A stretch of 64,000 bases of DNA from Nitrospirales bacterium (GTDB taxonomy: Bacteria; Nitrospirota; Nitrospiria; Nitrospirales; UBA8639): assembly GCA_965204965.1 (NCBI GenBank), contig OZ242026.1:1738458-1802457 (forward strand), in the 5' to 3' direction. The notes below the pieces were generated by a model. It made no database searches. It saw only the letters and a program-made list of their open reading frames with translations, and was not told the DNA's origin. Below, piece by piece: positions 8,567-31,971 of the stretch. Position numbers and translations under genes: made by a program. Within the stretch, counting starts at the first letter, position 1. Each line of letters begins with the position of its first letter.

Positions 8567-8600
8567 ATAACGTGTTCACGAACGTCTCCAGGAGTCACCC

Positions 8601-10442: not shown

Positions 10443-10470
10443 CGACCGAACCAAGCTGTATGCAGATGTT

Positions 10471-10506
10471 CCCCTCCTTTGTAAGGAGGGGCGAGGGGAG
10501 GTAGAG
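10471..10506. repeat. REP-like palindrome type II
   Basis: CCCCTCCTT-TGT-AAGGAGGGG followed by CGAGGGGAGGTAGAG. Confidence 0.7.
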
Positions 10507-10512
10507 AGCGTC

Positions 10513-11850: not shown

Positions 11851-13146
11851 ATGCAAACTTCTGCCTTCGGCGCAATACAGGCTCCGCCCTATTGGAACGG
11901 CTGGGCATTATCCGGCTGCTTGCATGCTGTGATGGTCGGGGTCGCCCTGTTCCTTTCACACCAACTGCCTACACCCCAAAAAGCCGCGCGCAACCCCATC
12001 GCCGTTGCCTTCGTCACTCCCGAGCCCACCCGCACGTCCCCTACCCACCGACAGACCATGAAGAAGGCGCCTCCCACACCGACGATCAAACCGAAACAGG
12101 TGCAACCCGAAGTCATCCCCAGGGAACCGGCCCAATCGAAGCCGCATACGCAGACTCAGCCCAGACAAACAGTCTCTCCGCAAACGGTTGTCCACGCTTC
12201 ACCGAAGCCTGCTCCCCTAGCAAAACTTCAAGTTACGAACGCTACGCCAATATCCGTGGCCCAACCCAGGACGGTCAAGCACGCCCAAACGACGCATCAA
12301 CCTGCAGTCAGGAACGGTGTGATCTCGTCTCAACCAAAGACGGTCACCCAAAGAGCTTCTCAGCCTACGGTCAGCAGCGGCGTGATCGCGGCTCAACCGA
12401 TGCCACGGCACACGGGAGACACGCGACACCATCAGGCTCCCAAGGTTCATGCCTCACCTTCTCGTAAGAAACCGGTTCACGTTGAGGCGACAATTGACAA
12501 GCTGGATCCCATCGTGCCACGAGACCCGGTCATCCACCACCATGTCACAAACGTCACCCAACCCATAGCCACCACGGTCAGGGCAGCAGCAGTTCGGCAA
12601 TCCGTGAAGGCCCTACCGTCCCATGTGGAAAAGAGAGTCCACGCTCCGGCGACGGCAGTCAAGAAACAACACATCCCAAACGAAAACGCTCATACGGCAG
12701 TGAGGCATGTTTTCTCGAAACCCGCGCCGCAACAGGCATCACTCTCCTCGGGCACGCCCGTCGTGCAGACACGCACCACGGTCAATTACACCCGCCAATT
12801 GAGAAAAGCCCGTCCGACCACCACTTCACGGTCCGTTTCGGGAGACGGCCTTTCTCCTGAACTCCTGGCCTTCAGCAAACTCCTTCGCGAGAAAGTCGCG
12901 CGAACACTTGTATTCCCGCGTCTGGCCAAACGCCTCGGATATTCCGGAACGACCCACATTGCAATCGCCTTATCGAAAACCGGCATTGTGCGAGAGTTAA
13001 AAGTCTCGCAGCCCTCGGGTTACGAAATTCTGGACAAGGCGGCCATCGTCACGCTGGAAAAAGTGCTTCAAACGACAAAACCACCTGAATCCATCGAGAT
13101 TGAACAGCTTGTTATTCCCATTGCCTTCAATTTGAGGCGAAATTAA
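11851..13146 (+). CDS. tonB: TonB family energy transducer
   Basis: N-terminal TM segment (WALSGCLHAVMVGVALFL), a long Pro/Thr/Gln-rich spacer, and a C-terminal TonB_C-like domain (FPRLAKRLGYSGTTHIAIALSKTGIVRELKVSQPSGYEILDKAAI). Confidence 0.8.
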   Translation: MQTSAFGAIQAPPYWNGWALSGCLHAVMVGVALFLSHQLPTPQKAARNPIAVAFVTPEPTRTSPTHRQTMKKAPPTPTIKPKQVQPEVIPREPAQSKPHTQTQPRQTVSPQTVVHASPKPAPLAKLQVTNATPISVAQPRTVKHAQTTHQPAVRNGVISSQPKTVTQRASQPTVSSGVIAAQPMPRHTGDTRHHQAPKVHASPSRKKPVHVEATIDKLDPIVPRDPVIHHHVTNVTQPIATTVRAAAVRQSVKALPSHVEKRVHAPATAVKKQHIPNENAHTAVRHVFSKPAPQQASLSSGTPVVQTRTTVNYTRQLRKARPTTTSRSVSGDGLSPELLAFSKLLREKVARTLVFPRLAKRLGYSGTTHIAIALSKTGIVRELKVSQPSGYEILDKAAIVTLEKVLQTTKPPESIEIEQLVIPIAFNLRRN

Positions 13147-13184
13147 GTACTCGGAAACCATCTCATCACAAAGGAGAATGCATT

Positions 13185-13625
13185 ATGACTCGCGCTCATT
13201 TCCTTGCGCTACTTCTGGCTCTCACGATCACGCTCCCCATTTCCGTGCTCGCCCAAAACCGCACGTTTACGGCTGAGACCACCGATGCAGACGGCATCCA
13301 AATGTCGGTCTCCAATGCCCGGTTGTACTGGGAAGAGAAAATCGACGAGACGACCTTCGTCCCACATGAAATCACGCATGTTCCGGTCAAACACGGCGCG
13401 GCGACGATCAACGTCAAATTTCAAAAGATCGCGAAAATTCAGGTCAAACCCGATCACCCGGCAAAGGGTCGCCAGGCCCTGACCATCAAACTGTTAAACG
13501 GCAAATCCGGTGAATTCCCCTTGGCGAAGGAAGTCACGCTGATCGGACAATCCGATTTCGGTGAAATCCGTATTCCCATGCAGAACCTGCGGTCCCTGAC
13601 CTTCTCCAAGAAACCCGGTTCTTAA
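13185..13625 (+). CDS. secreted hypothetical protein
   Basis: Signal peptide MTRAHFLALLLALTITLPISVLA, an AGGAGA SD upstream, and a position between tonB and exbB. Confidence 0.55.
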   Translation: MTRAHFLALLLALTITLPISVLAQNRTFTAETTDADGIQMSVSNARLYWEEKIDETTFVPHEITHVPVKHGAATINVKFQKIAKIQVKPDHPAKGRQALTIKLLNGKSGEFPLAKEVTLIGQSDFGEIRIPMQNLRSLTFSKKPGS

Positions 13626-13678
13626 CAATAGGCAACGACCTTGGACCATAAGGGTCAACCCAAGGAGAACGTGAGCGC

Positions 13679-14104
13679 ATGACCGCCTTACACACCATCA
13701 TCGATTTTGGCATTATCGGACTTCTCGTACTGCTGAGCTTGTGGGCCGTTGCCGTTGCCCTGGAACGCTGGCTTTTTTATCGACGCGCGTCCCTGGCTCA
13801 GTTCCCCGACGTGCAGCAATTGGAAATATCACTGACCAAACGATTGGTCGTCATCGGCACCGTAGCCGCGAACGCACCCTACATCGGGCTCTTGGGCACC
13901 GTCCTCGGGATCATGGTCACCTTTCATACCATGGGCACGACCAAGACAATCGAGGTGAGCGCGATCATGGTCGGATTGAGCCTGGCCCTGAAAGCCACGG
14001 CGGTCGGGTTGCTGGTGGCCATTCCCTGTGTCGTCATGAATAACGCGTTGCGCCGCCGCGTGGCGGAGTTGGTGACGCAATACAAGGCCCTCAATGGATC
14101 ATGA
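13679..14104 (+). CDS. exbB: MotA/TolQ/ExbB proton-channel protein
   Basis: NAPYIGLLGTVLGIMVTF motif, 3 TM segments, overlaps exbD. Confidence 0.85.
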   Translation: MTALHTIIDFGIIGLLVLLSLWAVAVALERWLFYRRASLAQFPDVQQLEISLTKRLVVIGTVAANAPYIGLLGTVLGIMVTFHTMGTTKTIEVSAIMVGLSLALKATAVGLLVAIPCVVMNNALRRRVAELVTQYKALNGS

Positions 14105-14468
14105 ACTGAACCAAATCAACGTCATCCCCTTGGTCGACGTGATGTTGGTCCTGCTGGTTATCGTCCTGACGACGGCCACCTTCATTTCGACCGGACAAAT
14201 TCCCGTGGATCTCGCGCAAGCCGACGCCACAAGCGCCACGCCGAGCGAACCGATTACGATTACGATTACGTCGTCAGGAGAACTCTTTCTGGATGGCGCT
14301 CAACTGACACAGGAAGCGATGCTCAACGAATTGCAGCGGTTTCCGCCCGAAACGCTGGTGCTCGTTCGTGCCGATCGCGTGATTCAACTCGAGCAATTCG
14401 TCGACGTCGTGGACGACGTCCGAGGGGCGGGATTAACAAAGATCAGTCTTGCCGTGGCGCAAGAGTGA
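14094..14468 (+). CDS. exbD: ExbD/TolR biopolymer transport protein
   Basis: INVIPLVDVMLVLLVIVLTTATF N-terminal anchor and an ExbD-like periplasmic domain. Confidence 0.85.
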   Translation: MDHELNQINVIPLVDVMLVLLVIVLTTATFISTGQIPVDLAQADATSATPSEPITITITSSGELFLDGAQLTQEAMLNELQRFPPETLVLVRADRVIQLEQFVDVVDDVRGAGLTKISLAVAQE

Positions 14469-14511
14469 CGGCCGGAAGAAGGAAGCGCCGGTTCATACCA
14501 ATTCGTACCGC

Positions 14512-14943
14512 ATGAGCAAATGGCTGTGGATCATGTGTTGGAGCCTTGGGATCGGCACGTCGGCCTTCGCGTCCGTCCAAGCAGCCACACTTCACGTCAC
14601 GGTAGAGGGAGTCCGTAACGACGCGCGGCCCGTCCGCATTCTTCTCTTCACGTCGCCGGACTCGTTTCCCGATGAAGAACTGTCCTTCAAATCTCATGTG
14701 ACGAGGGCCGTGAAAGGGACGGCCATCGTTGAGTTTACGGACCTCGACCCTGGCCCTTATGCAATCATGGCCTACCATGATGAAAACGAAGACAACAGGC
14801 TCAATCGGGTCCTGGGCATGTGGCCGGCGGAAGGGTACGGTCTGAGTCTGAATCCGCTTATGATGGGCCCTCCTACCTTTCAAGAAACCTCCTTCGAACT
14901 GCCGGCTCGCGGATTATCCGTGACCATTTTTCTCCAATATTAG
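14512..14943 (+). CDS. DUF2141-like secreted protein
   Basis: Signal peptide MSKWLWIMCWSLGIGTSAFASVQA. The blocks GPYAIMAYHDENEDNRLNRVLGMWPAEGYGLS...GPPTFQETSF match my recollection of the DUF2141 family. Confidence 0.7.
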   Translation: MSKWLWIMCWSLGIGTSAFASVQAATLHVTVEGVRNDARPVRILLFTSPDSFPDEELSFKSHVTRAVKGTAIVEFTDLDPGPYAIMAYHDENEDNRLNRVLGMWPAEGYGLSLNPLMMGPPTFQETSFELPARGLSVTIFLQY

Positions 14944-15162: not shown

Positions 15163-17499
15163 ATGAAGAGATTCTGGCTTATGGCCGTCCTTGTGTTTCT
15201 TGTATTTTCAACAACCCCAGCTCTCGCGCAAGATGCTGAAGACTCACAAACACAGAAAGTCAAGTTGAGGCTGGAACAGGTCACGATCAGCGCGACCAAG
15301 ACCAAACGGGACACGTTGACCACCCCGGGCGAAGTCAGCGTCCTGAACCAGGAGTATTTTCAACAACGCCAGGCGCAAAGCCTCGACGACGTGTTGCGCT
15401 ACGAACCGGGCGTAACGTCGGGCGGGGGTCCACGGACCATGGCGGAGGGCCCGAACATTCGAGGACTGTCCGGAGATCGCGTCCTTACGCTGCTGGACGG
15501 CATGCGGCTCACCTTCCAATCCGGGCACAAGGGCCGCCTCTTCATAGACATGGACCAACTCAAACAAGTCGAGGTGATTCGCGGACCGGGCTCGGCCCTG
15601 TACGGCAGCCAGGCCGTGGGCGGGGTCGTGGCCATGGAGACCAAGGATCCTTCCGATTATCTGGCCCCGGACATGACGTACGGCATACGGCAAAAGTTCG
15701 GCTACCAATACGCCAATGAAGAGTTGCTCTCCACCACGACCTTATCGGCCCGCCTCACCGATCAGGTCGCGGTCATGACCAGCGGCACTTTCAGGGCCGG
15801 GGAGAACGTTCGCCTCGGCGGTGACTTGGACCGTTTATCCAATTCCGCCCAAGACACCGCGGCCAATCTGAGCAAAATCGTCTGGACACCGACTCCGTAC
15901 GACGAGGCCGAGTTCTCCGTTCAAGCTACTCGACAAGCCGCACAGATCCCCTTCCAGGCTAATTCCATGCCCACCCAGCAAAGTTCCATTGCGGACCGGG
16001 TGAATCGTCAAATCACCTATCGTCTGGGATACACGCATAATGATCCGGCGAACCCCTACCTGGACCTCCGGGGGTTCGTCTATCTGACGACGCTGGACGT
16101 CACGGAAAGCCGGATTACCGATGCATCTCAACGAGACGATTTCGGTTTTGATACCTTTGGATATGATCTCAGGAATTCCATGAACTTCGGCGATCCCTCG
16201 ACGCACCACCACATCGTGACCTTCGGATCGGAATATTTCCGGAACACGCAAGAGAGCACGGGAAGTCGGTATACCAATGAATTCTTTGTTTACACCCCGG
16301 GCCAACGCTGTAATCCACGGGCAGGATTGCTTCCTCCTCGCTGCGGCTTCGTGCCCCCGTATTTCACTACCCCTATTCCTGCCGGCCTGACTGCCGCAAC
16401 CACTCCCCTGGGAGCCGAAACATTTTTCCCTGCTGCAAAAGCCGATACCTTTGCCCTGTACGTTCAGGACGAGATGACGATTGTCGACCGCGTCACCCTC
16501 ATTCCCGCGCTACGCTGGGATAATTGGGAGAATAGAGCGTCCGGCCGGGAAACCAGATCCGCCAGTGTCCTCAACCCGAAAATCGGAACGGTCATCCAGG
16601 TCACGGACTTCCTGTTTCTCACGGCAAACTACGCCCATGGATTCCGTCAACCCACGTTCGGGGAACTCTTTATCTCCGGCACGCATTTGCCCGGCAGCGT
16701 ATTTCGGGCGAATCCCGACTTGAAACCGGAACGCAGCCGGAATATCGACGCCGGATTCCGCCTGAATGTGCCCAAGGTGCTTTCCAACAACGATCAGTTC
16801 ATTTTCAAGGGGACTTACTTCAGAAACACGTTCAAGGATTTTATTGACTTTGTCTCCGGAGGATCGGGCACACCGCACGTGTGCAATACTGAAATGCCGA
16901 ATTTCAGACAAGGACAGAGGCCTTGTCCCTGGATCAGTTTTGGCACTTCCGCACGGCCGGGATTCCACCTGGGCACACTCCTTCAGCAGGGACAGCCAAA
17001 TATCCAAACGTTCAGGAACGTGCCTGATGCTCTGATCCACGGAGTGGAAGCCGAGTTTGAATGGCGCGCGATTGAGAACGTCGTCCTGTCCGGGAACTAC
17101 ACCTTCACGCACGGTACGGATCAAACCAATGGACGGCCAATAAACAACATTCCCCCGAATCGCGGCGTGCTGGGGATCGACTATTTCTACGATGCTTGGG
17201 GATTAAACCTGGGGGCCCGATCGCAAATGGTAGCCGATCAGGATCGCGTGCCGGTCTCCGATGATCCCTTCGTGGCCGGGACCCCAACCCCCGGCTACGT
17301 GCTGTTCGACATCTGGGCCAATGTGCAACCGGCCAAGGCATTGCTCCCCGAGCTTCCGAAGTCGTGGCTTCAAGGGTTTCGCCTCAACCTGGGGGTGGAT
17401 AACCTGACGGACCGTAACTACCGGCGGCATTTGTCATCCCTTCCCGAGGCGGGAGTCAATCCCAAGATATCGTTTTGGTACTCCTTGAATCTGCCCTGA
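15163..17499 (+). CDS. TonB-dependent outer-membrane receptor, paralog 1 (heme-receptor-like motifs)
   Basis: Signal peptide, plug domain (TLTTPGEVSVLNQEYFQQRQAQSLDDVLRYEPGV), GFRQPTFGELFISGTHLPGSVFRANPDLKPE (FRAP-like, His, NPNL-like), and a C-terminal ...FWYSLNLP. Confidence 0.9.
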   Translation: MKRFWLMAVLVFLVFSTTPALAQDAEDSQTQKVKLRLEQVTISATKTKRDTLTTPGEVSVLNQEYFQQRQAQSLDDVLRYEPGVTSGGGPRTMAEGPNIRGLSGDRVLTLLDGMRLTFQSGHKGRLFIDMDQLKQVEVIRGPGSALYGSQAVGGVVAMETKDPSDYLAPDMTYGIRQKFGYQYANEELLSTTTLSARLTDQVAVMTSGTFRAGENVRLGGDLDRLSNSAQDTAANLSKIVWTPTPYDEAEFSVQATRQAAQIPFQANSMPTQQSSIADRVNRQITYRLGYTHNDPANPYLDLRGFVYLTTLDVTESRITDASQRDDFGFDTFGYDLRNSMNFGDPSTHHHIVTFGSEYFRNTQESTGSRYTNEFFVYTPGQRCNPRAGLLPPRCGFVPPYFTTPIPAGLTAATTPLGAETFFPAAKADTFALYVQDEMTIVDRVTLIPALRWDNWENRASGRETRSASVLNPKIGTVIQVTDFLFLTANYAHGFRQPTFGELFISGTHLPGSVFRANPDLKPERSRNIDAGFRLNVPKVLSNNDQFIFKGTYFRNTFKDFIDFVSGGSGTPHVCNTEMPNFRQGQRPCPWISFGTSARPGFHLGTLLQQGQPNIQTFRNVPDALIHGVEAEFEWRAIENVVLSGNYTFTHGTDQTNGRPINNIPPNRGVLGIDYFYDAWGLNLGARSQMVADQDRVPVSDDPFVAGTPTPGYVLFDIWANVQPAKALLPELPKSWLQGFRLNLGVDNLTDRNYRRHLSSLPEAGVNPKISFWYSLNLP

Positions 17500-17826: not shown

Positions 17827-17897
17827 TCCGCAAAGCCCTCTTGCATGCATTTCAAGATCCACCCCGTCACTCATCATCGCTAATCAAGGAGGGCTGT

Positions 17898-20039
17898 ATG
17901 CATAAACCATTTACTCTCTTGGCAGTCGTTCTGCTTCTGGGTCTTTTCACAAGCCAGGCGCACGCGCAGGGCACTGAAGAAACCGAAGCCGAGGGACCCC
18001 CTAAAATCAAGATGCGACTCCAACAGGTCACAGTCAGCGCGACTAAAACCGAACGGGATCCGTTGACCACCCCTGGCGAGGTGAACGTCCTGACCCAGGA
18101 ATATTTTCAGCAGCGCCAGGCCCAAAGCCTGGACGACGTCCTGCGCTATGAACCGGGCGTTGATTCGATTTTAGGCCCGCGAACCATGGGAGAGAGCCCG
18201 AATATTCGAGGGCTGTCGGGTGCGCGGGTGCTCACGCTGGTGGATGGTGTCCGGCTCAACTTTCAATCCGGGCACAGAGGCCGCCTCTTTTTGGATATGG
18301 ATCAACTCAAGCAAGTCGAAGTGATTCGCGGACCGGGATCGGCCCTGTACGGCAGCCAGGCCCTGGGCGGGGTCGTCGCCATGGAGACCAAGGACCCCTC
18401 CGACTATCTGGCTCCGGACATGCAGTACGGCATACGACAAAAGCTCGGCTACCAATACGGCAATGAAGAACTGCTCTCCACCACCACCCTATCGGGCTGG
18501 CTCACCGGTCAGATCGAAGTCATGACCGCCAACACCATTCGGGCCTCCGGGGATATTCGACTCGGCGGCGACCTGCCGCGCTTGGCCAATTCCTCGCAAG
18601 ACACCTATGGGAATTTGAGCAAGATCGTCTGGGTACCGACTGCGCACGATCGAGCTGAATTTTCCCTTCAAGCCAATCGACAAACCGCGCGGATCCCCTT
18701 CAGCACCACCTCGACAACCACTTCACCCACATCCATCAGCGACCGTGTGAACCGTACGTTCACGTATCGCTTGGAGTACAAACATAATAATCCGTCGAAT
18801 CCGTATTTGAATCTTCAGGGATTCGCCTATCTCACGACCATGGACATCGACCAAACCGTGATTGCCAATCAGCAAAAAGACCACATCCGTTACGATACCT
18901 TGGGATATGACATACGAAATTCCATGAATTTCGGCAATCCTTCGTCTCATCATCACATCGTGACCATCGGGTCGGAATTTTTCCGGAACTCCCAGGAGGG
19001 GAGAGGGAATCGGATCAGCAGCTTTTCAGGGGCTCCGACGGGAGCCCCGCTGTATTGGCCCACCGCGGAATCGAGCGTCTTCGCCCTGTACGTGCAGGAC
19101 GAGATGACGATCATGGATCGCCTCACCGTGATTCCCGCCCTCCGATGGGATCATTGGGACAACGAGAGGGACGGACAGGAAACCAGATCTTTGGGTGTCC
19201 TCAACCCGAAAATCGGCGCCGTCTATCAGGTCACGGATTTCCTGTATCTTTCGGCGAACTACGCCCATGGATTCCGGCAACCCACGTTCCAGAACCTCTT
19301 TATCTCCGGCACGCACTTTCCGGGTACCGTTTTCGCTCCCAATCCCGACCTGGGCCCGGAACGCAGCCGGAATATCGACTTGGGCGTCCGGGTCAACCTG
19401 CCCAAGATGCTTTCCGATGATGACCGGTTCATTTTCAAGGGAGCGTATTTCAGAAACCAACTCAGAGATTTCATTGCCACGAACACGGTGTGTCCCGATG
19501 GTTCCCCGCCACGGGGGTTCTTCAACCCTTGCACCTCCGGACAGGCCATGACCGTCTACTATAACGTCCAACAGGCCCTGATCCAGGGCTGGGAGGCGGA
19601 ATTCGAATGGCGTGTCAGTGACAGCCTGGTTTTGAACGGGAACTACAGTCAGGCCCACGGGACTGATGAAATATCCAATATGCCATTACCCAACATTCAG
19701 CCGCGACGCGGTCTACTGAGCATCAACTATCTCTACGCGCCGTGGGGATTGTCTCTCGGCGCCCGAACGCAAATGGTGGCCGACATTACCCGAGTGCCGA
19801 TCCCGAGTTTCGGCGATCCAAATACACCCGGAGGCTACGCGATCTTCGATATCTGGGCCATCGTGCAACCCGGCACGGCCCTGTTGCCCGAACTCCCCAA
19901 ATCATGGCTTCAGGGATGGCAGGTAAACCTTGGAGTCGATAACCTGTTCGATCGCGAATATCGTCGAAACTTGTCACCTCTTCAGGAGATGGGGGTCAAT
20001 CCCAAGATACAGGTGTGGTACAACCTTAATCTTCCTTAA
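17898..20039 (+). CDS. TonB-dependent outer-membrane receptor, paralog 2
   Basis: AAGGAGGG SD then ATG at 17898, signal peptide MHKPFTLLAVVLLLGLFTSQAHA, a plug nearly identical to paralog 3, and GFRQPTFQNLFISGTHFPGTVFAPNPDLGPE. Confidence 0.9.
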   Translation: MHKPFTLLAVVLLLGLFTSQAHAQGTEETEAEGPPKIKMRLQQVTVSATKTERDPLTTPGEVNVLTQEYFQQRQAQSLDDVLRYEPGVDSILGPRTMGESPNIRGLSGARVLTLVDGVRLNFQSGHRGRLFLDMDQLKQVEVIRGPGSALYGSQALGGVVAMETKDPSDYLAPDMQYGIRQKLGYQYGNEELLSTTTLSGWLTGQIEVMTANTIRASGDIRLGGDLPRLANSSQDTYGNLSKIVWVPTAHDRAEFSLQANRQTARIPFSTTSTTTSPTSISDRVNRTFTYRLEYKHNNPSNPYLNLQGFAYLTTMDIDQTVIANQQKDHIRYDTLGYDIRNSMNFGNPSSHHHIVTIGSEFFRNSQEGRGNRISSFSGAPTGAPLYWPTAESSVFALYVQDEMTIMDRLTVIPALRWDHWDNERDGQETRSLGVLNPKIGAVYQVTDFLYLSANYAHGFRQPTFQNLFISGTHFPGTVFAPNPDLGPERSRNIDLGVRVNLPKMLSDDDRFIFKGAYFRNQLRDFIATNTVCPDGSPPRGFFNPCTSGQAMTVYYNVQQALIQGWEAEFEWRVSDSLVLNGNYSQAHGTDEISNMPLPNIQPRRGLLSINYLYAPWGLSLGARTQMVADITRVPIPSFGDPNTPGGYAIFDIWAIVQPGTALLPELPKSWLQGWQVNLGVDNLFDREYRRNLSPLQEMGVNPKIQVWYNLNLP

Positions 20040-20424: not shown

Positions 20425-22521
20425 ATGCATAAACCACTTACTTGCCTGGCAGTCCTTCTGCTTATGGGGTTTTTTACAGGCCAGGCGCAGGCGCGGGACA
20501 CTGAAGAGGCCGAAGCCGAGGGGCCCCCTAAAATCAAGATGCGGCTCCAACAGGTCACGGTCAGCGCGACCAAAACCGAACGGGATCCGTTGACCACCCC
20601 TGGCGAAGTGAGCGTCCTGACCCAGGAATATTTTCAACAACGCCAGGCCCAAAGCCTGGACGACGTCCTGCGCTATGAACCGGGCGTTGATTCACGGATA
20701 GGCCCCAGAAACATGGGTGAGGGTCCGAATATTCGAGGATTGCAGCGTGCGCGGGTCCTGACGCTGCTGGACGGCGTCAGACTCAACTTTCAGGCCGGGC
20801 ACAAAGGCCGCATCTTTATTGACATGGATCAACTCAAACAAGTGGAGGTGGTTCGCGGTCCGAACTCGGCCTTGTACGGCAGCCAAGCGCTGGGGGGTGT
20901 CGTGGCCATGGTGACCAAAGACCCTTCCGATTATCTGGCCCCGGACATGCAGTACGGCATCCGTGAAAAATTCGGTTACCAGTACGTCAATGAGGAACTG
21001 CTGTCCACCACCACCTTATCAGCCCGCCTCACCAAGAACGTGGAATTCATGGCCAGTGGGACCTACCGGGCCGGCGAGAATATTCGACTCGGCGGCGACT
21101 TGCCGCGTTTGGCCAACTCCGCCCAGGACACCGCAGCCGGATTGACCAAACTAGTGTGGAAACCGACGCCGTATGACGAAGCCAAATTGTCCATTCAAGC
21201 CACTCGCCAGGCCGCGCGCATTCCCTTCAATACCAACTCCGGAACCTCCTCAACGAGGTCCATCTCCGACCGCGAGAACCGTCAAGTCACGTACCGCTTG
21301 GGTTATGCCCATCATAATCCGGCCAATCCGTATTTGAACCTCCGGGGGTTCGTGTATCTGACGACGCTGGACATCACGGAAATCCAGCTTTCCAATCAGG
21401 CAAGGGACGATATCACTTTCGACACGTTCGGGTATGATCTCAGAAATTCCATGAACTTCGGCAATCCTTCATCGAACCATCACATCGTGACCTTCGGATC
21501 CGAATTTTACCGGAACAGCCAAACGGGTGACGGAAGTCGCACAACCTCTTCCGGAGGACTCACGGGAGCCCGGGTGTTTTATCCCGATGCGGACTCTGAC
21601 GTTTTCGCCCTGTACCTGCAGGATGAGATCACCATCATGAATCGCCTCAACCTCATCCCCGCCTTGCGCTGGGATCATTGGAAAAATACGGCGCCGGACC
21701 AAGACGCCCAATCCGTGGGTGTCCTCAACCCGAAAATCGGCGCGGTGTTTCAAGTGACAGACTCTCTGTTCCTGACGGCAAACTATGCCCATGGTTTCCG
21801 GCAACCGACGTTTGCCCAGCTCTTTATCTCCGGCACGCATGCCGCGGGAAGCATTTTTGTTCCGAATCCCGACCTGAGTCCGGAACGGAGCCGGAACATC
21901 GACGTGGGATTCCGGGTGAAATTGCCAAAGATGCTCTTCAACCAGGATCGATTCATTTTCAAGGGAGCCTACTTCAGAAACCAGATCAGGGACTACATTG
22001 CCCTGTTCCGCTATGGACCGAGAAACATCAACAGAACCTACCGGAACATCGGAAATGCCATGATCCATGGCATGGAGGCGGAATTCGAATGGCGCGTCCT
22101 TCAGAACCTCGCCCTGCGCGGTAACTACAGCCTGGCGCACGGCACGGATGAAACCCTGGATAATCCACTGCCGGACATTACGCCTCAACGTGGGGTCTTG
22201 GGCATCGATTATCTGCACCAGCCTTGGGGATTGACCATGGGCGGCCGCACTCAAATGGTCGGCAACCAGGAACGCGTGCCGAGACCGGCGCGGGGCTCCA
22301 GACAGAGAACCGGCGGCTTTGTCATCTTCGATATCTACGCCACGGTGCAACCCGCCCGGGCGTTGCTCCCCGAACTTCCAAAATCATGGTTGCAAGGGTT
22401 TCAACTCAACATCGGCGTCGACAACCTAACGGATCGAAAGTACCGCCGGCATCTGTCATCCCTTCCCGAAGCCGGGGTCAATCCCAAGATATCGTTTTGG
22501 TACTCCATTAACTTTCCCTGA
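20425..22521 (+). CDS. TonB-dependent outer-membrane receptor, paralog 3
   Basis: Signal peptide MHKPLTCLAVLLLMGFFTGQAQA, plug domain, GFRQPTFAQLFISGTHAAGSIFVPNPDLSPE, and a C-terminal ...FWYSINFP. Confidence 0.9.
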   Translation: MHKPLTCLAVLLLMGFFTGQAQARDTEEAEAEGPPKIKMRLQQVTVSATKTERDPLTTPGEVSVLTQEYFQQRQAQSLDDVLRYEPGVDSRIGPRNMGEGPNIRGLQRARVLTLLDGVRLNFQAGHKGRIFIDMDQLKQVEVVRGPNSALYGSQALGGVVAMVTKDPSDYLAPDMQYGIREKFGYQYVNEELLSTTTLSARLTKNVEFMASGTYRAGENIRLGGDLPRLANSAQDTAAGLTKLVWKPTPYDEAKLSIQATRQAARIPFNTNSGTSSTRSISDRENRQVTYRLGYAHHNPANPYLNLRGFVYLTTLDITEIQLSNQARDDITFDTFGYDLRNSMNFGNPSSNHHIVTFGSEFYRNSQTGDGSRTTSSGGLTGARVFYPDADSDVFALYLQDEITIMNRLNLIPALRWDHWKNTAPDQDAQSVGVLNPKIGAVFQVTDSLFLTANYAHGFRQPTFAQLFISGTHAAGSIFVPNPDLSPERSRNIDVGFRVKLPKMLFNQDRFIFKGAYFRNQIRDYIALFRYGPRNINRTYRNIGNAMIHGMEAEFEWRVLQNLALRGNYSLAHGTDETLDNPLPDITPQRGVLGIDYLHQPWGLTMGGRTQMVGNQERVPRPARGSRQRTGGFVIFDIYATVQPARALLPELPKSWLQGFQLNIGVDNLTDRKYRRHLSSLPEAGVNPKISFWYSINFP

Positions 22522-25970: not shown

Positions 25971-26075
25971 CAACCGGTTATCGGACATCCTTTTCCGGCA
26001 AATGAACATGTACGTCCGTTGCCGCAAACTGCTATCATCTAAAACTTGATATTGATTCCTTATTTCAATATTAAG
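25971..26075 (+). promoter_or_regulatory. composite regulatory module D upstream of the CbiX-like gene
   Basis: CAACCGGTTATCGGACATC | CTTTTCCGGCAAATGAACATG at 25971-26010. AT block GCTATCATCTAAAACTTGATATTGATTCCTTATTTCAATATTAAG at 26031-26075, containing the inverted repeat ATATTGA...TCAATAT. Confidence 0.55.
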
Positions 26076-26084
26076 TAGGCTACC

Positions 26085-27758
26085 ATGCAACGTCACACAA
26101 GTAAGCTGTTCCTTGCCCTAACTCTATTGACGATCATCTGCAGCAGTCCCCTGCCTGTTCTCGCACAATCCCATCCAGGCTTTTTGGTCATTGCGCCGGA
26201 CCGCGGATATCTGGAGAATCAGGAGACCAACGAACTCTTCGAGGAATTTCAGCGTGCTTACCCCGCGTCTCTGGCTTTGGTCGGCGATCAAGATGGATAC
26301 CATGGGCCCGCGTATAATGAATACCTCAAGGAATCTGTCCAGCACTTACAGTCATTGAACGCGACGTCCATCGTTGCCATTCCTTTGTTTCTTTCCGATG
26401 CCGAACCGCAGCTGCAGGCAGTTCGTGACATTTTGCAAAGCCACACCGGCGATATGGCCGTCGAATGGGCTCCGGCAATGGCCGGGAGTCACCTGATCGG
26501 ACAGATCCTGCTCGACCGGGTCGAAGAAATCAGCCAGTCACCTGAAGACGAACGACTCGTTCTGGTCGGAATGGGTGCGCATGACGAAAAGAGTGAACAG
26601 GCTATCAAGGAAAACTTAACAGGACTGCTGAAGTACATCCAGCGATATAAGTCGTTCGAGGATAGCGAAGCAGTGGTCTACTATGCTTGGAATGCGGAAC
26701 AACGCCGTGAGAAGAATAAAGAAGTGGAGGCACACATCACGGAACTGGCTGCAAAGCAAGGCCGTACCTTGATGGTCCCGGCTTTCATCGGTGCCAAGTT
26801 CACTCACATGATGGCCGCAACGAACTGGATGCACCGCAAATTCAAAAAAATGAACGTGGTCTTTCAGCCATCGGAGGTTGTTCCTCATCCCAATCTGCTG
26901 TTGTGGCTCAAGAAAACCGCCAATCAGTACCTCACTGACATCAGTCCAAGCGAAATCGGGGTCGTCCTCATGCCCCATGGTTCATCACAGCCTTACAACG
27001 ACGCCATTGAAAAGCTCGTCAAACCTCTTACAGGCCGCTATCAAATTGAAATGGCTGATGGCATGGGCGATGCGGCCATCATTCAACAGGCCGTATCCCG
27101 TCTTGAACAACGGGGCGTGAAACGCATCGTGTTCGGAAGGATTTTTGGCCTCATCAATACCTTTAAACCCAAAACAGACTATATTCTTGGTCTTTCAGAC
27201 GAGTATCTCAAAGACCTCGACGAGGATCGCACCCCCCCTGCACAAATTCGAAGCGGCGCCATGTTCTCCACTTTCGGCGGATATGAGGAAGATGCCGTCA
27301 CGGCGCAGATACTGCATGAACGGATTATGGAGATCAGTCAAAACCCTTCAGAGGAAACGGTCGTACTCCTGGCGCACGGAACGGGATCCGACGAATCCAA
27401 CGAGCGATGGTTGTCGGCCATCAATGCCAATATCGAAACACTTCGTCAGGATCCGCATTGCGCAAAATTGAAAGCCATCAAGGCCATGACCGTCAGGGAA
27501 GATTGGCCTAAGCTACGGAAAAAAGCGGTTAAGGAAGTACGGGAATTCATTAAGGAAAGCAATAAAACCGGAAAGGTCTTGGTCATCTCCAATCGCCTCT
27601 ACGGCCCGGGACCGTATCCCAAAATGCTGGCCGGCCTTGATTTCGAAATCAACGGAAAAGGTTTTCTCTCTCCGGCCATGGCACACTGGCTTGACCAATC
27701 CATTCAGCAAGTGACTGAAGAGCTCAAAGGACCGGTAAGGCTTGCTGGACAAAGTTAG
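26085..27758 (+). CDS. secreted protein built from repeated CbiX/SirB-like (class II chelatase fold) half-domains
   Basis: Sec signal peptide MQRHTSKLFLALTLLTIICSSPLPVLA. Four CbiX-like segments: IVAIPLFLSDAEPQ, LVLVGMGAHDEKSE, GVVLMPHGSSQPYNDAIEKL and VVLLAHGTGSDESNERW. Confidence 0.55.
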   Translation: MQRHTSKLFLALTLLTIICSSPLPVLAQSHPGFLVIAPDRGYLENQETNELFEEFQRAYPASLALVGDQDGYHGPAYNEYLKESVQHLQSLNATSIVAIPLFLSDAEPQLQAVRDILQSHTGDMAVEWAPAMAGSHLIGQILLDRVEEISQSPEDERLVLVGMGAHDEKSEQAIKENLTGLLKYIQRYKSFEDSEAVVYYAWNAEQRREKNKEVEAHITELAAKQGRTLMVPAFIGAKFTHMMAATNWMHRKFKKMNVVFQPSEVVPHPNLLLWLKKTANQYLTDISPSEIGVVLMPHGSSQPYNDAIEKLVKPLTGRYQIEMADGMGDAAIIQQAVSRLEQRGVKRIVFGRIFGLINTFKPKTDYILGLSDEYLKDLDEDRTPPAQIRSGAMFSTFGGYEEDAVTAQILHERIMEISQNPSEETVVLLAHGTGSDESNERWLSAINANIETLRQDPHCAKLKAIKAMTVREDWPKLRKKAVKEVREFIKESNKTGKVLVISNRLYGPGPYPKMLAGLDFEINGKGFLSPAMAHWLDQSIQQVTEELKGPVRLAGQS

Positions 27759-27804
27759 CGTTTACTCATATTAACCATTTCTTCACTGATAGGGAGGAAG
27801 ATTT

Positions 27805-28053
27805 ATGCAATACATTTACCAACTCACACGGTCATTCCTGATCCTCGGTCTTCTGGCATTCGCACTGGTCGTTGGTTTTTCAGGAATAACCTTGGCCGAC
27901 GAAAAAGCGGCCGAAGGGGAAGCAAAAGCTTCCAGCGAGAAGAAAGCCGACGGTGAGATGAAGGCGGATGGCGATGCCAAAGCCGACGGTGAGAAAAAAT
28001 CGGATGGCGATGCCAAAGCTGAGGGGGAAGAAAAAGCCCCGGCATCCAAATAA
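27805..28053 (+). CDS. small secreted or anchored acidic/lysine repeat protein (KADGE repeats), copy 1
   Basis: GGGAGG SD upstream. MQYIYQLTRSFLILGLLAFALVVGFSGITLA hydrophobic leader, then DEKAAEGEAKASSEKKADGEMKADGDAKADGEKKSDGDAKAEGEEKAPASK. A paralog lies at 34365..34601. Confidence 0.65.
   Translation: MQYIYQLTRSFLILGLLAFALVVGFSGITLADEKAAEGEAKASSEKKADGEMKADGDAKADGEKKSDGDAKAEGEEKAPASK
27965..28019 (+). repeat. 36-bp-period direct repeat inside the KADGE gene
   Basis: CGGATGGCGATGCCAAAGC occurs at 27965-27983 and again at 28001-28019. Confidence 0.8.
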
Positions 28054-28751: not shown

Positions 28752-29483
28752 TCAACGGTCGTTGTTTGCTGCGCAACCGTCGGCGACAGTTGATGACCGT
28801 GAAAAGAGCGCGACATCCGTACCGGAGAGGTTCTTGCCGTAGAGATCGATGTCCGGCAGCTTTTTCTCCCAGGTTCTTTCGTCAGGGCCGTAGATATGAC
28901 CCATGCGATCCAGATAGAGGTTCGCCAATTTTTCGTCCGTTTCCCACGTATCCGAGGCCAGGCTGGCGGTTTCCAATCCCGAGCCGTATTCTCCTCGTTC
29001 GTTGGAGAAAAAACGTATGGTGGACAACGTTTCGGCTTCCTCTGGTTCAATGCCCGACGCCAGCAGGTCCTGCTCGATGCGGGCGGAGTGCTGCGCAACG
29101 AAGTTGTCTTCTTCCTGTAATCGTGCGACCTGTTCGATGGCTTTCGAAATGAGCGTCATCACGTTCGGGAAGGCGTCACGATACAGACCCGTGGGCAATG
29201 ACTCCGGATTGTTGATCGGTCCCCTACCCGTAGACGTTGGAATATATTTTCCCTCCAAGGCCATAGTCAGCGATTTGAGTTCCTGCCGGCCCAGCAGGTC
29301 GGCATAATATTCCCTCGCCTTCTCCAGAAACCCGCGCAGTTCCGAAGACATGGTCTCCGCCGGGTCGACACCTTCCACCACGTGTGTTTTGACGAGCCGG
29401 TATTCAGGCGTGTGTTCCAATTCGTCGTATCGCATGGGTGTGTTCCCACCAAAAATAAGCGCATCGCCGTTCTCCGATGGCAA
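28752..29483 (-). pseudogene. internal fragment of a CobN/BchH/HmuS-type large chelatase subunit
   Basis: ALEGKYIPTSTGRGPINNPESLPTGLY and RFFSNERGEYGSGLETASLASDTWETDEKLANLYLDRMGHIYG match conserved CobN-family blocks. Only 243 aa are present, whereas the family is over 1000 aa. The reading frame is continuous upstream into the truncated TBDR in a shifted frame. Confidence 0.6.
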
Positions 29484-29485
29484 GT

Positions 29486-30619
29486 TTAGCGTACCCGCGA
29501 CCGCAAGCTTGTTGGCCAGGGTGACGTAGGAATCCCCCAGCGGACGCGGGCATCATCGATCCGCGCTTGGAACCCGACCGTCGCCATAACTTCGAGATCC
29601 GCCAATCGCAGCAGGTGTTGATAGCCAACGTCGCTGCCATAGACCCAGCGTCGATCTTTCTGTTCGATCCCGTCGCCGTTGACCGGATCATTCAGCAAAA
29701 AAGTGAAATTGGTGAACAACGAGAGTTGATAGTGCTGGGTCCAGACTTTGGCGAACACCTTCTTTAGCGGAGACAAGTCATAATAGTAGTCGAGACGGGC
29801 CGTGGTGCGAGCCGTTTCTCCCCCTTCGGATAGGTCTATGGCTCCGAAGCGATCGAGACGGCGCGTGCTGACTTCCCTCAACGGAATCTGGCCCGATCCG
29901 TTCCAACGCCCGTAATGCTGCGTCAGAGTGAAACGCAACCGGGATTCGGGTGTGGGATCAAAAGAGATCTTGGCCAAGCCGTTGTAGCGTATATTGCGAT
30001 TCACGAAGAGGAACGGACCGTCGGTGTAGTAAAACTCCCCGGCAAAAAGGGTACGAACGTCGTCCTGCACGGGCGACGTCATGAACAGGTGTCGCTGCGT
30101 GTTGAACTGGCCACCACTCGTCTGCACCACGGTCTCGGGGACGACCTCACGTGTCACGTAATTCACGGCCCCCGCTGTCGCAAAATCGCCATATTCAACG
30201 TAATAGGGACCCTTTTTCACAACGATTTCCCGAATGGGTTCCGGAATGATAAAGTTCAGGTCAGCGTAACCCTGTCCATGCGCATGGCTGCGAAGATTGA
30301 CCGGCATGTTGTCCACGTGGAAGGCAAGGTCCATCCCATGATCGCCGTCGAACCCGCGAAGCAAAAATTGGTCGGCCTTGCCCGCGCCCCCTGAATGTTC
30401 GAGGATGATGAGCCCAGGCGCCAAGCGGAGAAGATCTGCCGGGCGGCCTTGAGGTTGGAGCACGATGTCCTCATCCGGAATAATCCGGTTGGACGATGCC
30501 GCGGTGGGACGTTTCCCATTGACGACCATCACCGGAAGAGTCTGAACGGTCTCCGGGGTATGCGCTTCACCGTGCATAGGGAGGAACACGCACAAGACCA
30601 CCAACAGATATTTCTTCAT
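29486..30619 (-). pseudogene. truncated TonB-dependent receptor (signal peptide, plug and first barrel strands only)
   Basis: MKKYLLVVLCVFLPMHGEAH signal peptide and a plug (ADLLRLAPGLIILEHSGGAGKADQFLLRGFDGDHG). It is 377 aa versus 698-778 aa for the intact receptors here. Its C-terminal 18 aa look out of frame. Confidence 0.6.
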
Positions 30620-31040: not shown

Positions 31041-31248
31041 ATTTGATCTTTTTTCATGACCGAGCATTTTGGGTTGCCTTAAATCGGAAAGATCTTGGAC
31101 GGAGATTAAGTTTTCACACCGGCCATAATGATCATACTTATTATTCTGCTTGTCAGATCTAGACTCACCTGATCAACAGACGGTGCCCCATCGGAGCATC
31201 GCCGCAACCGATCGCGGTCTATTTCGAACAGGGACACGAGGTGCAACA

Positions 31249-31971
31249 ATGGCCAACACGCGCGATACAAAAAATGCTTATCCTGCCGTCCCCGAAATGC
31301 TGTCCTGTCGGGAACCCATAGATTCTCTCGTTGGAGCTCTCCGACGTCACGATCCCGCGTTGCTCGAACACGGGATGCGAACGGCTTCCTATTCTCGGGT
31401 GCTCGGCCGACTCGTGAATCTTACACACAACGACCTGGAAGACCTTTACCATGCGGCACTCCTTCATGACATCGGAAAGATGTCTTTGCCGAATGAAGTG
31501 ATCCGGCAGAACGGCATCTCCATCATCGGCGATTACCTCATGACGGAATGCACCCCGCAAGCCAGCGCCGACATGCTTCGACCCTGGCCGGCCCTAGGGA
31601 ACGTTGCGACCCTGATTGCACTCCATCACGAACGATGGGACGGAATGGGTCTCCCCTTCGGGTTGCGCGGGCGACAGATCCCCATGGGCGCAAGGATTCT
31701 GTCACTGGCCGATACGGTCGACCAATTGCTTACACAGAAATCCGACTCATTTTCTGCTCAGGCCACGGCTCTGGTCCGAATTCTTAGCACTCTGTCCAGG
31801 TCCAGATTCGATCCCAAATTGGTCAATCTCTTTATCGAGTGGTTCCAAGACGTCTTCTTGGAAACGTTGGTCAATTACCCATGGGGGGAAGATTCTCTCG
31901 TGTGGAAATCAGATTCAACCTCTACAGCCGACATTCTCGAATCCGCAAAACTCATCCACGGCATCATGTGA
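31249..31971 (+). CDS. HD-GYP-like domain protein (degenerate GYP: HHERWDGMGLP)
   Basis: LLHDIGKMSLP (HD) and IALHHERWDGMGLPFGLRGRQIPMGARILSLADTVD. GAGGTG SD upstream of ATG at 31249. Confidence 0.7.
   Translation: MANTRDTKNAYPAVPEMLSCREPIDSLVGALRRHDPALLEHGMRTASYSRVLGRLVNLTHNDLEDLYHAALLHDIGKMSLPNEVIRQNGISIIGDYLMTECTPQASADMLRPWPALGNVATLIALHHERWDGMGLPFGLRGRQIPMGARILSLADTVDQLLTQKSDSFSAQATALVRILSTLSRSRFDPKLVNLFIEWFQDVFLETLVNYPWGEDSLVWKSDSTSTADILESAKLIHGIM

What the first reader, a model, noticed from the sequence alone, without database searches (positions are those of the whole stretch)
26085..27758. A secreted protein built from tandem CbiX-like chelatase half-domains sits under the iron-type promoter module
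The 557-aa product has a clear Sec signal peptide and four segments resembling CbiX/SirB half-domains. Two keep an HGS/HGT motif (MPHGSSQPYN, LAHGTGSDESN). The other two are degenerate (APDRGY, GMGAHDEK).

Class II chelatases are normally cytoplasmic tetrapyrrole-metal insertases. A periplasmic paralog, CbiK(P) of Desulfovibrio, is known to bind heme.

Here the gene follows heme-type receptors and lies near a CobN/HmuS-like remnant. That suggests a periplasmic tetrapyrrole-binding or metal-extracting (dechelatase-like) role rather than biosynthesis. A duplicated double-domain, exported version of this kind is not something I recognise as characterised.
Basis: partly seen in the sequence, partly recalled or inferred. 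Interest (0 to 1): 0.65.

Follow-up and report, generated by a model that had tools for sequence, protein, structure and literature searches.

The report
Exported double chelatase-fold partner of heme-type receptors
The gene encodes an exported protein made of two copies of the fold normally used to put metals into heme-like rings. It belongs to a widespread, unstudied family that sits beside, shares a control motif with, or is even fused to outer-membrane heme-type importers, so it most likely handles imported heme or its iron in the periplasm.

Summary
Window 26085..27758 (+) is a 557-aa ORF with a Sec-type signal peptide (aa 1-27). It contains four alpha/beta lobes forming two tandem class II chelatase modules. 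The AlphaFold model has pLDDT 85, and the best Foldseek match is SirB. The two modules are homologous to each other (hhalign E 3e-9).

Only the C-terminal module keeps a His at the canonical CbiX catalytic position, one in each lobe (H298, H431). Both are invariant down to 22% identity. The N-terminal module has replaced them with its own nearly invariant APDRG and GxGA motifs.

This is not a biosynthetic enzyme in the usual setting:
- A hydrophobic signal-like N-terminus is present in all 42 relatives checked.
- Some single-module relatives look like lipoproteins.
- A heme-family TonB-dependent receptor (TBDR) lies within 5 kb in 46 of 62 loci from at least six phyla.
- In Marinacidobacterales a related module is fused to the receptor's N-terminus.
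- hemP or fur are neighbours in distant relatives.

In the window, the gene carries the same tandem CCGG-N6-RACAT upstream motif as tonB, three heme-type receptors and an HD-domain gene.

Best reading: a periplasmic heme or metalloporphyrin handling protein, possibly an iron extractor. The ligand is untested. It is a new variant of a known kind (exported chelatases such as CbiK(P) and FetB/IhtB).

The parts
25974..26009 (+). Tandem pair of CCGG-N6-RACAT sites 21 bp apart, a putative regulator-binding module upstream of the gene
   Evidence: 15 matches in the window against 1.7 expected. Six same-strand pairs with 21-bp spacing lie upstream of tonB, TBDR1-3, this gene and the HD gene. The pair is conserved upstream of the orthologue in L010, L011, L013, L014, L018 and L019.
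26046..26075 (+). AT-rich inverted repeat (ATATTGA-N9-TCAATAT) readable as TTGATA-N17-TATTAA, ending 10 nt before the ATG. Possible promoter or operator
   Evidence: Similar TTGAWATT..TCA elements precede the three TBDR genes. The consensus promoter scan did not call it, so the promoter assignment is by eye only.
26085..27758 (+). 557-aa ORF: exported protein with two class II chelatase-fold modules
26085..26165 (+). Sec-type signal peptide, aa 1-27, predicted cleavage after VLA
   Evidence: A hydrophobic N-terminus is present in 42 of 42 family members.
26169..26939 (+). N-terminal two-lobe module (aa 29-285). Both canonical His positions are lost and replaced by conserved APDRG (26193-26207) and GxGA
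   Evidence: hhalign against the single-module family: 99.6%, E 9e-24, 233 columns. Pfam CbiX hit at residues 78-106. SirB alignment at 87-175. D39 and G41 invariant.
26940..27734 (+). C-terminal two-lobe module (aa 286-550) keeping His298 (26976-26978), Met327 (27063-27065) and His431 (27375-27377)
   Evidence: hhalign against the single-module family: E 3e-67. H298, M327, H431, E472, D473, W474 and R504 are invariant in 42 sequences down to 22% identity. The H298-equivalent His aligns on the CbiX 'AHGS' His of 3lyh.
27805..28053 (+). 82-aa ORF with an N-terminal hydrophobic segment and a K/A/D/E/G-rich repeat tail, conserved just downstream of the gene in the closest clade
   Evidence: (small82 in L010, L011, L013-L015)
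20425..22521 (+). TBDR3, heme/hemoglobin-family TonB-dependent receptor, preceded by the same motif pair (20261/20282)
   Evidence: TIGR01785 434.6 bits, cutoff 316.85
17841..20039 (+). TBDR2, heme-family receptor, motif pair at 17732/17753
15163..17499 (+). TBDR1, heme-family receptor, motif pair at 14974/14995
11851..14943 (+). tonB, 146-aa ORF, exbB, exbD and DUF2141 operon, motif pair at 11721/11742
6461..11681 (+). AraC-family regulator followed by a MacB-type pump (MFP, ABC ATPase, two FtsX permeases). Syntenic with the Nitrospira loci that carry the orthologue
31150..31971 (+). HD (HD_5) domain gene carrying the sixth motif pair (30933/30954). An HD gene is linked to the family in many loci
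28752..30619 (-). Remnants of a TBDR (Plug only, 29486-30619) and a CobN-like gene (28752-29483). Both are intact in relative L018
34081..34601 (+). Diverged duplicate of the last ~76 codons of the gene plus an intact paralogue of the small ORF
   Evidence: (62% aa identity, E 8e-31)

Best explanation
The product is a periplasmic protein that works downstream of heme-family TonB-dependent receptors (TBDRs) in an iron-acquisition regulon.

It is built from two class II (CbiX/SirB-type) chelatase modules. The C-terminal module keeps one canonical His in each lobe (H298, H431) and an invariant Met (M327), all expected to line the inter-lobe cleft. I propose that this cleft receives the metalloporphyrin, most likely heme, that the receptor delivers to the periplasm.

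The N-terminal module has lost both His residues but is strongly conserved. It would act as a non-catalytic ligand-holding or partner-docking module.

The outcome is one of two things: hand-over of the tetrapyrrole, or the chelatase reaction run backwards, which frees iron in the periplasm.

Shown here: export features, the fold, the internal duplication, residue conservation, the linkage and fusion to heme-type receptors, and the shared upstream motif.

Inferred: the ligand, the role of each module, and dechelation.
For: Fold and architecture:
- The AlphaFold2 model is confident and the best Foldseek matches are class II chelatases.
- The protein is a tandem duplication of a two-lobe module.
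- H298, M327 and H431 are invariant across 42 sequences down to 22% identity. The equivalent residues are also invariant in 22 single-module relatives.
- H298 corresponds to the catalytic His of CbiX in the profile alignment.

Export:
- Signal-like N-termini are present in 42 of 42 members.
- Lipobox-like N-termini occur in 8 of the 20 single-module relatives scored.

Linkage to receptors:
- A TBDR lies within 5 kb in 46 of 62 loci and within 1.5 kb in 33 of 62. These loci span Nitrospirota, Gammaproteobacteria, Sphingomonadales, Acidobacteriota and Latescibacterota.
- The partner receptors pass the curated heme-family cutoffs in the window and in three distant loci.
- A related module is fused to the N-terminus of such a receptor in five Marinacidobacterales loci, directly upstream of the double-module gene.
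- hemP and fur are neighbours in L003 and L081.

Regulation: the gene shares the tandem CCGG-N6-RACAT motif with tonB, the three receptors and the HD gene. The motif is conserved upstream of six orthologues.

Precedents: exported CbiK-type chelatases that bind metalloporphyrins are known. [quoted passage not shown]
Against: - No binding or activity data exist for any member.
- The second catalytic His of CbiX/CfbA is not conserved: it aligns to Ser or to nothing. Met327 appears to occupy the position of the catalytic Glu. This argues against a standard chelatase or dechelatase chemistry.
- The heme-family TBDR models also cover transferrin, lactoferrin and other receptors. The window's three receptors lack a FRAP box.
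- No inner-membrane heme transporter or heme oxygenase lies in the window.
- Several loci (Nitrospinota, Scalindua, L038, L075) and the single-module relatives have no receptor nearby.
- The Nitrospira loci also carry an AraC regulator, a MacB-type pump and a PepSY_TM protein. That combination fits siderophore handling equally well.
Confidence: 0.5

Rival explanations
1. It is a periplasmic binding or processing protein for a non-porphyrin metal chelate (a siderophore or other metallophore), or for the free metal ion released from one. The His pair would capture Fe(II), Ni or Co after reduction. The MacB-type pump would recycle the emptied ligand, as in pyoverdine recycling by PvdRT-OpmQ (own knowledge).
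For: - AraC, MFP, ABC and two FtsX genes, plus tonB, flank the gene in Nitrospira and in the window.
- Fourteen Nitrospira loci have a PepSY_TM protein next to an exported canonical CbiX. From my own knowledge, this family includes FoxB-type siderophore reductases.
- SirB crystal structures bind Co, Ni and Fe at the His site (PDB titles).
- The heme-family TBDR models are broad.
Against: - The chelatase cleft is a tetrapyrrole site in every characterised member.
- The partner receptors score best with the heme models, not the siderophore model, where they fall below cutoff.
- hemP is a neighbour in two independent lineages.
- No ABC importer for metal ions or siderophores is linked.
Confidence: 0.25
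2. It is a periplasmic chelatase working in the forward direction. It would insert a metal into imported or exported porphyrin, for example to detoxify free porphyrin or to make a non-iron metalloporphyrin, as reported for FetB-dependent Mn-PPIX.
For: P. gingivalis FetB, an exported CbiK-type chelatase, is needed for Mn-protoporphyrin IX production (PMC13065792). His298 is retained at the catalytic position.
Against: The second His and probably the Glu of the catalytic triad are missing. The iron-uptake type context (TonB, receptors, fur, hemP) points to acquisition rather than synthesis.
Confidence: 0.1
3. It is an ordinary cytoplasmic sirohydrochlorin ferro- or cobaltochelatase for siroheme or cobalamin synthesis, as database names suggest.
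For: Source annotations such as 'sirohydrochlorin ferrochelatase'. Weak CbiX and CfbA model hits.
Against: - Signal peptides are present throughout the family, and some relatives have lipoboxes.
- A related module is fused to the N-terminus of an outer-membrane receptor.
- Catalytic residues are lost in three of four lobe positions.
- The NCBIfam score is 23.9 against a cutoff of 120.
- No cob, cys or hem biosynthesis neighbours were found.
Confidence: 0.03

Closest known systems
SirB / long CbiX (CbiX-L) sirohydrochlorin chelatases (for example B. subtilis SirB, PDB 5zt7)
   Same: Best structural match (Foldseek E 8e-6, target TM 0.66, about 260 columns). Same Pfam family, CbiX PF01903. Two-lobe module with a His at the end of the first strand.
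   Different: The known enzymes are cytoplasmic, single-module and catalytic, using a His-Glu-His site in one lobe. Here the protein is exported and the module is duplicated. One His is kept in each lobe of the C-module only, and the second His is not conserved.
Small CbiX (CbiX-S) / CfbA homodimeric chelatases (M. jannaschii CfbA, PDB 6m25; PDB 3lyh)
   Same: Best sequence-profile match for the C-module type (E 1.5e-7 and 5e-4). Having the same His in both lobes mirrors the symmetric two-His arrangement of a CbiX-S dimer.
   Different: Those are cytoplasmic half-size proteins that insert Ni or Co. The His of the 'AHGIH' motif is absent here.
Desulfovibrio vulgaris periplasmic CbiK(P) (PDB 2xvz)
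   Same: An exported class II chelatase that binds metalloporphyrin (PMC13065792). It is a Foldseek hit (rank 9, E 2.6e-3).
   Different: It belongs to the CbiK branch (Pfam CbiK is not hit), has a single module, and has no reported TBDR fusion or double-module form.
Porphyromonas gingivalis FetB/IhtB (PDB 9B86)
   Same: [quoted passage not shown] From my own recollection, its gene sits in a TonB-linked receptor operon. Lipoprotein-type signals resemble those of several single-module relatives here.
   Different: It is CbiK-type (37% identical to Salmonella CbiK), single-module and found in Bacteroidota. It shows no detectable sequence relation beyond the shared fold.
CobN-like HmuS / BtuS proteins of Bacteroidota heme loci
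   Same: Chelatase-type proteins placed beside heme receptors and implicated in heme metabolism or in assimilating iron released from heme (PMC13227078, PMC6460266). A decayed TBDR plus CobN-like pair lies next to the gene.
   Different: These are class I (CobN) chelatase subunits, a completely different fold and size.

Membership tests
Class II chelatase fold (CbiX/SirB/CbiK/HemH) | Two alpha/beta lobes, each a four-stranded parallel sheet with flanking helices, around a central cleft | tested here: met
   AlphaFold2 model pLDDT 85.2, with four such lobes. Foldseek top hits are SirB, CbiK(P), HemH and CbiK, probability 1.00.
Pfam CbiX (PF01903) | Score above the gathering cutoff | tested here: met
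   23.4 bits against a cutoff of 22, which is marginal. Eighteen of 22 single-module relatives match, best E 3.3e-15. The receptor-fused module scores 44-46 bits.
Catalytically competent CbiX/SirB/CfbA chelatase | First catalytic His at the end of strand 1 (the HGS motif) | tested here: met
   H298 and H431 are invariant. The H298-equivalent aligns on the 'AHGS' His of 3lyh. The His is absent from both N-module lobes.
Catalytically competent CbiX/SirB/CfbA chelatase | Second catalytic His after strand 3 (CfbA 'AHGIH', SirB His76) | tested here: not met
   In the profile alignment it falls on 'sgeS-f'. In the window protein the region reads FGRIFGLINTF, and a His occurs there only in some relatives.
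Catalytically competent CbiX/SirB/CfbA chelatase | Catalytic Glu after strand 2 (SirB Glu43; the numbering is from memory) | tested here: inconclusive
   The alignment to 3lyh puts invariant Met327 on the Glu of 'YMEL'. That this Glu is the catalytic one rests on my recollection of SirB, not on a test.
NCBIfam CfbA / sirohydrochlorin nickelochelatase equivalog | Score above the curated cutoff (120 bits) | tested here: not met
   23.9 bits
CbiK family (includes CbiK(P) and FetB/IhtB) | Match to the Pfam CbiK model / CbiK-type sequence | tested here: not met
   No CbiK hit at E<=1 for the protein, nor at E<=0.01 for 22 relatives. The similarity is structural only.
Exported chelatase-like proteins of heme/iron uptake loci (functional class) | Export signal | tested here: met
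   Signal-like N-terminus in 42 of 42 members. Lipobox-like motifs in some members. No dedicated predictor was run.
Exported chelatase-like proteins of heme/iron uptake loci (functional class) | Genomic linkage to a TonB-dependent receptor | tested here: met
   46 of 62 loci within 5 kb. Fusion to the receptor in five loci.
Exported chelatase-like proteins of heme/iron uptake loci (functional class) | Binds heme or another metalloporphyrin | not testable with these tools
   Needs purified protein and spectroscopy.

The most novel reading that the evidence does not exclude
The family is the core of a periplasmic 'heme mining' route. A heme-type receptor imports heme. The double chelatase-fold protein then strips the iron without opening the ring. 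In Nitrospira it would be helped by an exported canonical CbiX and a PepSY_TM reductase. The linked MacB-type pump would expel the toxic free porphyrin; E. coli MacAB-TolC is known to export protoporphyrin IX (PMC4263509). Heme would never need to cross the inner membrane. This would give nitrite oxidisers, and their sponge and coral symbiont relatives, an iron source not so far attributed to them.
Probability: 0.2. Interest if true: 0.8.

Novelty: new variant of a known kind. Interest (0 to 1): 0.6.

Why it matters
How bacteria get iron out of heme without a heme oxygenase is still argued over. The candidates are CobN-like HmuS/BtuS, FetB/IhtB and the disputed 'deferrochelatases'. This family offers a clean test case. 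It is an exported protein with a chelatase fold and strictly conserved His/Met/His residues. It is tied to heme-type receptors across several phyla and physically fused to one in some Acidobacteriota.

It is common in Nitrospira, the main nitrite oxidisers of soils, oceans and treatment plants. My searches found no paper on this protein family there, and iron supply limits their heme-rich enzymes. The closest relatives of the window come from sponge- and coral-associated Nitrospirales, where host heme could be an iron source.

The finding also corrects a systematic database name ('sirohydrochlorin ferrochelatase') for hundreds of proteins. It defines a candidate regulon, marked by the tandem CCGG-N6-RACAT motif and an AraC-type regulator, that can be tested directly.

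Tried and rejected
- A single-sequence search of PDB sequences gave only noise. Profiles were needed.
- The search for related loci with the broad alignment A3 failed because no stretch was conserved enough. A1 was used instead.
- My first motif pattern had the wrong spacing and was at chance level. The corrected pattern was 15 matches against 1.7 expected.
- The consensus promoter scan did not call the TTGATA-N17-TATTAA element. The promoter and the possible near-leaderless start are therefore only a visual reading.
- Similarity of the AT-rich element to the E. coli Fur box is about 11 of 19 by eye. I do not claim a Fur box.
- FRAP/NPNL heme-receptor boxes were found in the L003 and L061 receptors. 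The window's three receptors have only NPDL/NPK-type boxes.
- Loci without a receptor (Nitrospinales L043, Scalindua L048) had housekeeping or multicopper-oxidase neighbours and gave no functional hint.
- Single-module relatives in Bacteroidota and in an unassigned metagenome contig showed no receptor linkage.
- Literature searches for Nitrospira plus periplasmic chelatase or iron limitation found nothing on this family.
- A cytoplasmic biosynthetic role was considered and rejected (see rivals).
- A lipoprotein reading of Cys19 was rejected. The residues before it do not fit a lipobox and the Cys is not conserved.
I could not measure whether H298, M327 and H431 face one cleft.
Full report
**1. 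The observation**

Window 26085..27758 (+) is a 557-aa ORF starting at ATG. Its N-terminus, MQRHTSKLFLALTLLTIICSSPLPVLA then QS, has the three parts of a Sec signal: basic residues, a hydrophobic core and a small-x-small cleavage site. It has no lipobox. Twenty-three homologues share the same start and the first conserved strand, GFLV(V/I)APDRG.

An AlphaFold2 model built on that alignment is confident (mean pLDDT 85.2, pTM 0.82). It shows four consecutive lobes, each with four strands and flanking helices.

**2. Is it a chelatase fold?**

Sequence evidence for the single protein is weak but consistent:
- Pfam CbiX scores 23.4 bits against a cutoff of 22, at residues 78-106.
- NCBIfam CfbA matches residues 292-354, far below its cutoff.
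- The family profile matches B. subtilis SirB.

Structure evidence is clear. The seven best Foldseek hits are SirB structures (E 8e-6 to 1e-4, target TM about 0.66, about 260 aligned columns). They are followed by periplasmic CbiK of D. vulgaris, B. subtilis HemH and Salmonella CbiK.

The N-half (29-285) and the C-half (286-550) are homologous (hhalign 96%, E 3e-9). So the protein is a tandem duplication of a complete two-lobe module.

**3. The family**

A word-indexed search found about 500 relatives. They are mostly 550-570 aa, nearly all from Nitrospira or Nitrospirota, and are named 'hypothetical' or 'sirohydrochlorin (ferro)chelatase'. An exhaustive search of 50%-identity representatives found 699 proteins at E<=1e-3. 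These include full-length double-module proteins down to about 25% identity, and roughly 300-aa proteins that match only residues 288-545.

Those single-module proteins occur in Bacteroidota and Gemmatimonadales as 'hypothetical'. Most have signal peptides, and 8 of the 20 scored have a lipobox-like motif.

Profile comparisons:

| Comparison | E-value |
|---|---|
| C-module vs single-module family | 3e-67 |
| N-module vs single-module family (233 columns) | 9e-24 |

In the N-module alignment, APDRG lies on AHGG and GxGA lies on AHGxG.

Across 42 double-module proteins down to 22% identity, the invariant residues are D39, G41, P100, M243, H298, G299, M327, G344, G369, G398, G399, E424, H431, G432, E472, D473, W474 and R504. 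The residues equivalent to H298, M327 and H431 are also invariant in the single-module family. The N-module is therefore conserved and re-purposed, not decaying.

**4. Catalytic residues**

The single-module profile matches CfbA (6m25, E 1.5e-7) and a small CbiX (3lyh, E 5e-4). The His equivalent to H298 aligns on the 'AHGS' His of 3lyh. The His of CfbA's 'AHGIH' aligns to Ser or to nothing. A weaker alignment puts H431 on the SirB 'GHGS' His.

So each lobe of the C-module keeps the first catalytic His, as in a symmetric small-CbiX dimer, but the second His is gone. The same alignment puts invariant Met327 on the Glu of CbiX 'YMEL'. From memory I believe that Glu corresponds to the catalytic Glu43 of SirB; this is a lead, not a test.

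A His/Met pair contributed by two lobes is how the heme-binding protein IsdE holds heme iron (own knowledge). That makes heme binding plausible, but it is only an analogy.

**5. Context in the window**

On the + strand, in order:
- AraC-type regulator (6461-7102)
- MFP, ABC ATPase and two FtsX permeases, forming a MacB-type pump (7099-11681)
- tonB, a 146-aa ORF, exbB, exbD and DUF2141 (11851-14943)
- three TonB-dependent receptors (15163-22521)
- a membrane/SpeE-like/TPR gene (22755-25829)
- the target
- an 82-aa repeat protein
- on the - strand, remnants of a CobN-like gene and a receptor
- an HD-domain gene (31150)

All three receptors pass the curated cutoffs of the heme/hemoglobin receptor models: TIGR01785 scores 427-435 bits against a cutoff of 317. 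They fall below the siderophore model cutoff.

**6. A shared upstream motif**

The pattern CCGG-N6-RACAT occurs 15 times against 1.7 expected. Twelve of these form six same-strand pairs exactly 21 bp apart. The pairs lie upstream of tonB, each receptor, the target (25974/25995) and the HD gene. The pair is conserved upstream of the orthologue in six of ten related Nitrospirales genomes, and upstream of their receptors, tonB and HD genes.

Direct repeats with a 21-bp period suit an AraC-type activator, and one heads the cluster. This is an inference.

An AT-rich inverted repeat, readable as TTGATA-N17-TATTAA, ends 10 nt before the ATG. The scan tool did not call it as a promoter.

**7. Context elsewhere**

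Sixty-nine loci were recovered from species-representative genomes. They cover Nitrospirales, Nitrospira, Manganitrophaceae, Nitrospinota, Gammaproteobacteria, Sphingomonadales, Scalindua, Acidobacteriota, Latescibacterota and Myxococcota. The closest are sponge- and coral-associated Nitrospirales.

With the window's proteins as probes, a receptor lies within 5 kb in 46 of 62 loci that have a full-length gene, and within 1.5 kb in 33 of 62. In Gammaproteobacteria this is 4 of 4 within 1.5 kb, and in Acidobacteriota 10 of 12. I did not run a matched random-gene control.

Receptors next to distant homologues also pass the heme-family cutoffs (L003, L044, L061). Two of them have FRAP/NP(D/E)L boxes.

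Other informative arrangements:
- L003: receptor, hemP, target.
- L081: receptor, target, fur, an unnamed gene, hemP.
- Five Marinacidobacterales loci: a single ORF encodes a signal peptide, a two-lobe chelatase-like module (Pfam CbiX 44-46 bits; hhalign to the single-module family E 2e-40) and then the receptor plug and barrel. The double-module gene lies immediately downstream. N-terminal extensions of such receptors are periplasmic (established knowledge). This fusion ties the module physically to the receptor.
- Nitrospira: the gene follows AraC, the MacB-type pump and tonB. It is followed by a receptor, and then by an exported canonical CbiX that keeps both His residues (Pfam 52.6 bits) and a PepSY_TM protein.

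**8. Interpretation**

The evidence places the protein in the periplasm as a partner of heme-family receptors within an iron-acquisition regulon. The most economical mechanism is that the C-module cleft receives the imported metalloporphyrin through H298, H431 and M327, while the His-less N-module holds ligand or docks a partner. Whether it merely passes heme on or removes the iron cannot be decided here.

The dechelatase idea gains some coherence from three observations:
- the neighbouring remnant of a receptor/CobN-like pair, which is intact in L018;
- the PepSY_TM protein of Nitrospira;
- the linked MacB-type pump, since E. coli MacAB-TolC exports protoporphyrin IX (PMC4263509).

The same parts also fit a siderophore-type route, which is the main rival. 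The loss of the second catalytic His warns against assuming standard chelatase chemistry.

**9. Comparison with what is known**

Exported class II chelatases exist. D. vulgaris CbiK(P) binds metalloporphyrin. [quoted passage not shown] Both are single-module proteins of the CbiK branch.

The present family differs in five ways:
- it belongs to the CbiX/SirB branch, with no Pfam CbiK hit;
- it is duplicated;
- it has a distinctive His/Met/His signature;
- it is fused to a receptor in one lineage;
- it has no characterised member that I could find.

I therefore rate it a new variant of a known kind, of moderate to high interest.

Noticed in passing
window 11721-11756, 14974-15009, 17732-17767, 20261-20296, 25974-26009, 30933-30968 (single sites at 7086, 52824, 54811): Six tandem pairs of CCGG-N6-RACAT with exactly 21-bp spacing define a candidate regulon: tonB, three receptors, the target and an HD-domain gene. 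An AraC-type regulator (6461-7102) heads the cluster and is the obvious candidate binder.
   Followed up: partly
window 24030-24032 (within 22755-25829): A single in-frame TAG replaces a Trp codon of a 1,024-codon membrane/SpeE-like/TPR gene. The gene is uninterrupted in relatives L010, L015 and L018 (85% identity). This is a nonsense mutation, a split gene or a sequencing error.
   Followed up: yes
window 34081-34601 compared with 27520-28050: Diverged segmental duplication (77-80% nt identity) of the last ~76 codons of the target plus the small repeat-protein gene. The target copy is a truncated remnant (88-aa ORF, 62% identity). The small ORF copy (34365-34601) is intact.
   Followed up: partly
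window 33126-33404 compared with 34874-35166: A second duplicated stretch (80-86% nt identity) is a remnant of the 3' end of the GlnD-like gene (34864-37662, minus strand). Together with the CobN, receptor and target remnants, this suggests a genome accumulating gene fragments, as in host-associated lineages.
   Followed up: no
window 28752-30619 (minus strand): A Plug-only receptor fragment (376 aa) and a 243-aa CobN/Mg-chelatase fragment. In relative L018 the same position holds an intact receptor (about 685 aa) and a CobN-like gene (about 1,365 aa).
   Followed up: partly
L061 6598-9699 (also L062, L063, L073, L078): Marinacidobacterales encode a heme-family TonB-dependent receptor with an N-terminal signal peptide plus a complete chelatase-like module fused in frame. 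The double-module gene lies directly downstream.
   Followed up: partly
L001 16835-19735 (and 13 other Nitrospira loci): Downstream of the receptor lies a conserved trio. It consists of a 442-aa protein with a Trans_reg_C domain, an exported canonical CbiX of 312 aa that keeps both catalytic His residues, and a PepSY_TM-like membrane protein. This trio is absent from the window.
   Followed up: partly
window 27805-28053: An 82-aa ORF with an N-terminal hydrophobic segment and a tail of 30-36-nt repeats encoding K/A/D/G/E-rich units. It is conserved right after the target in the closest clade. Function unknown.
   Followed up: no
window 15144-15153: A run of ten G lies 10 nt upstream of the TBDR1 start codon. 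It could be a slippage-prone tract or part of the ribosome-binding region.
   Followed up: no
window 26069-26087: If TATTAA (26069-26074) is the -10 element, transcription would start 3-4 nt before the ATG, giving a nearly leaderless mRNA.
   Followed up: no
L048 1736-3994; L006 13911-16472: In Scalindua two multicopper oxidase genes lie near the homologue. Near one single-module relative lies a copper-type P-type ATPase. These are weak hints of a copper link that fit the His/Met signature but nothing else.
   Followed up: no
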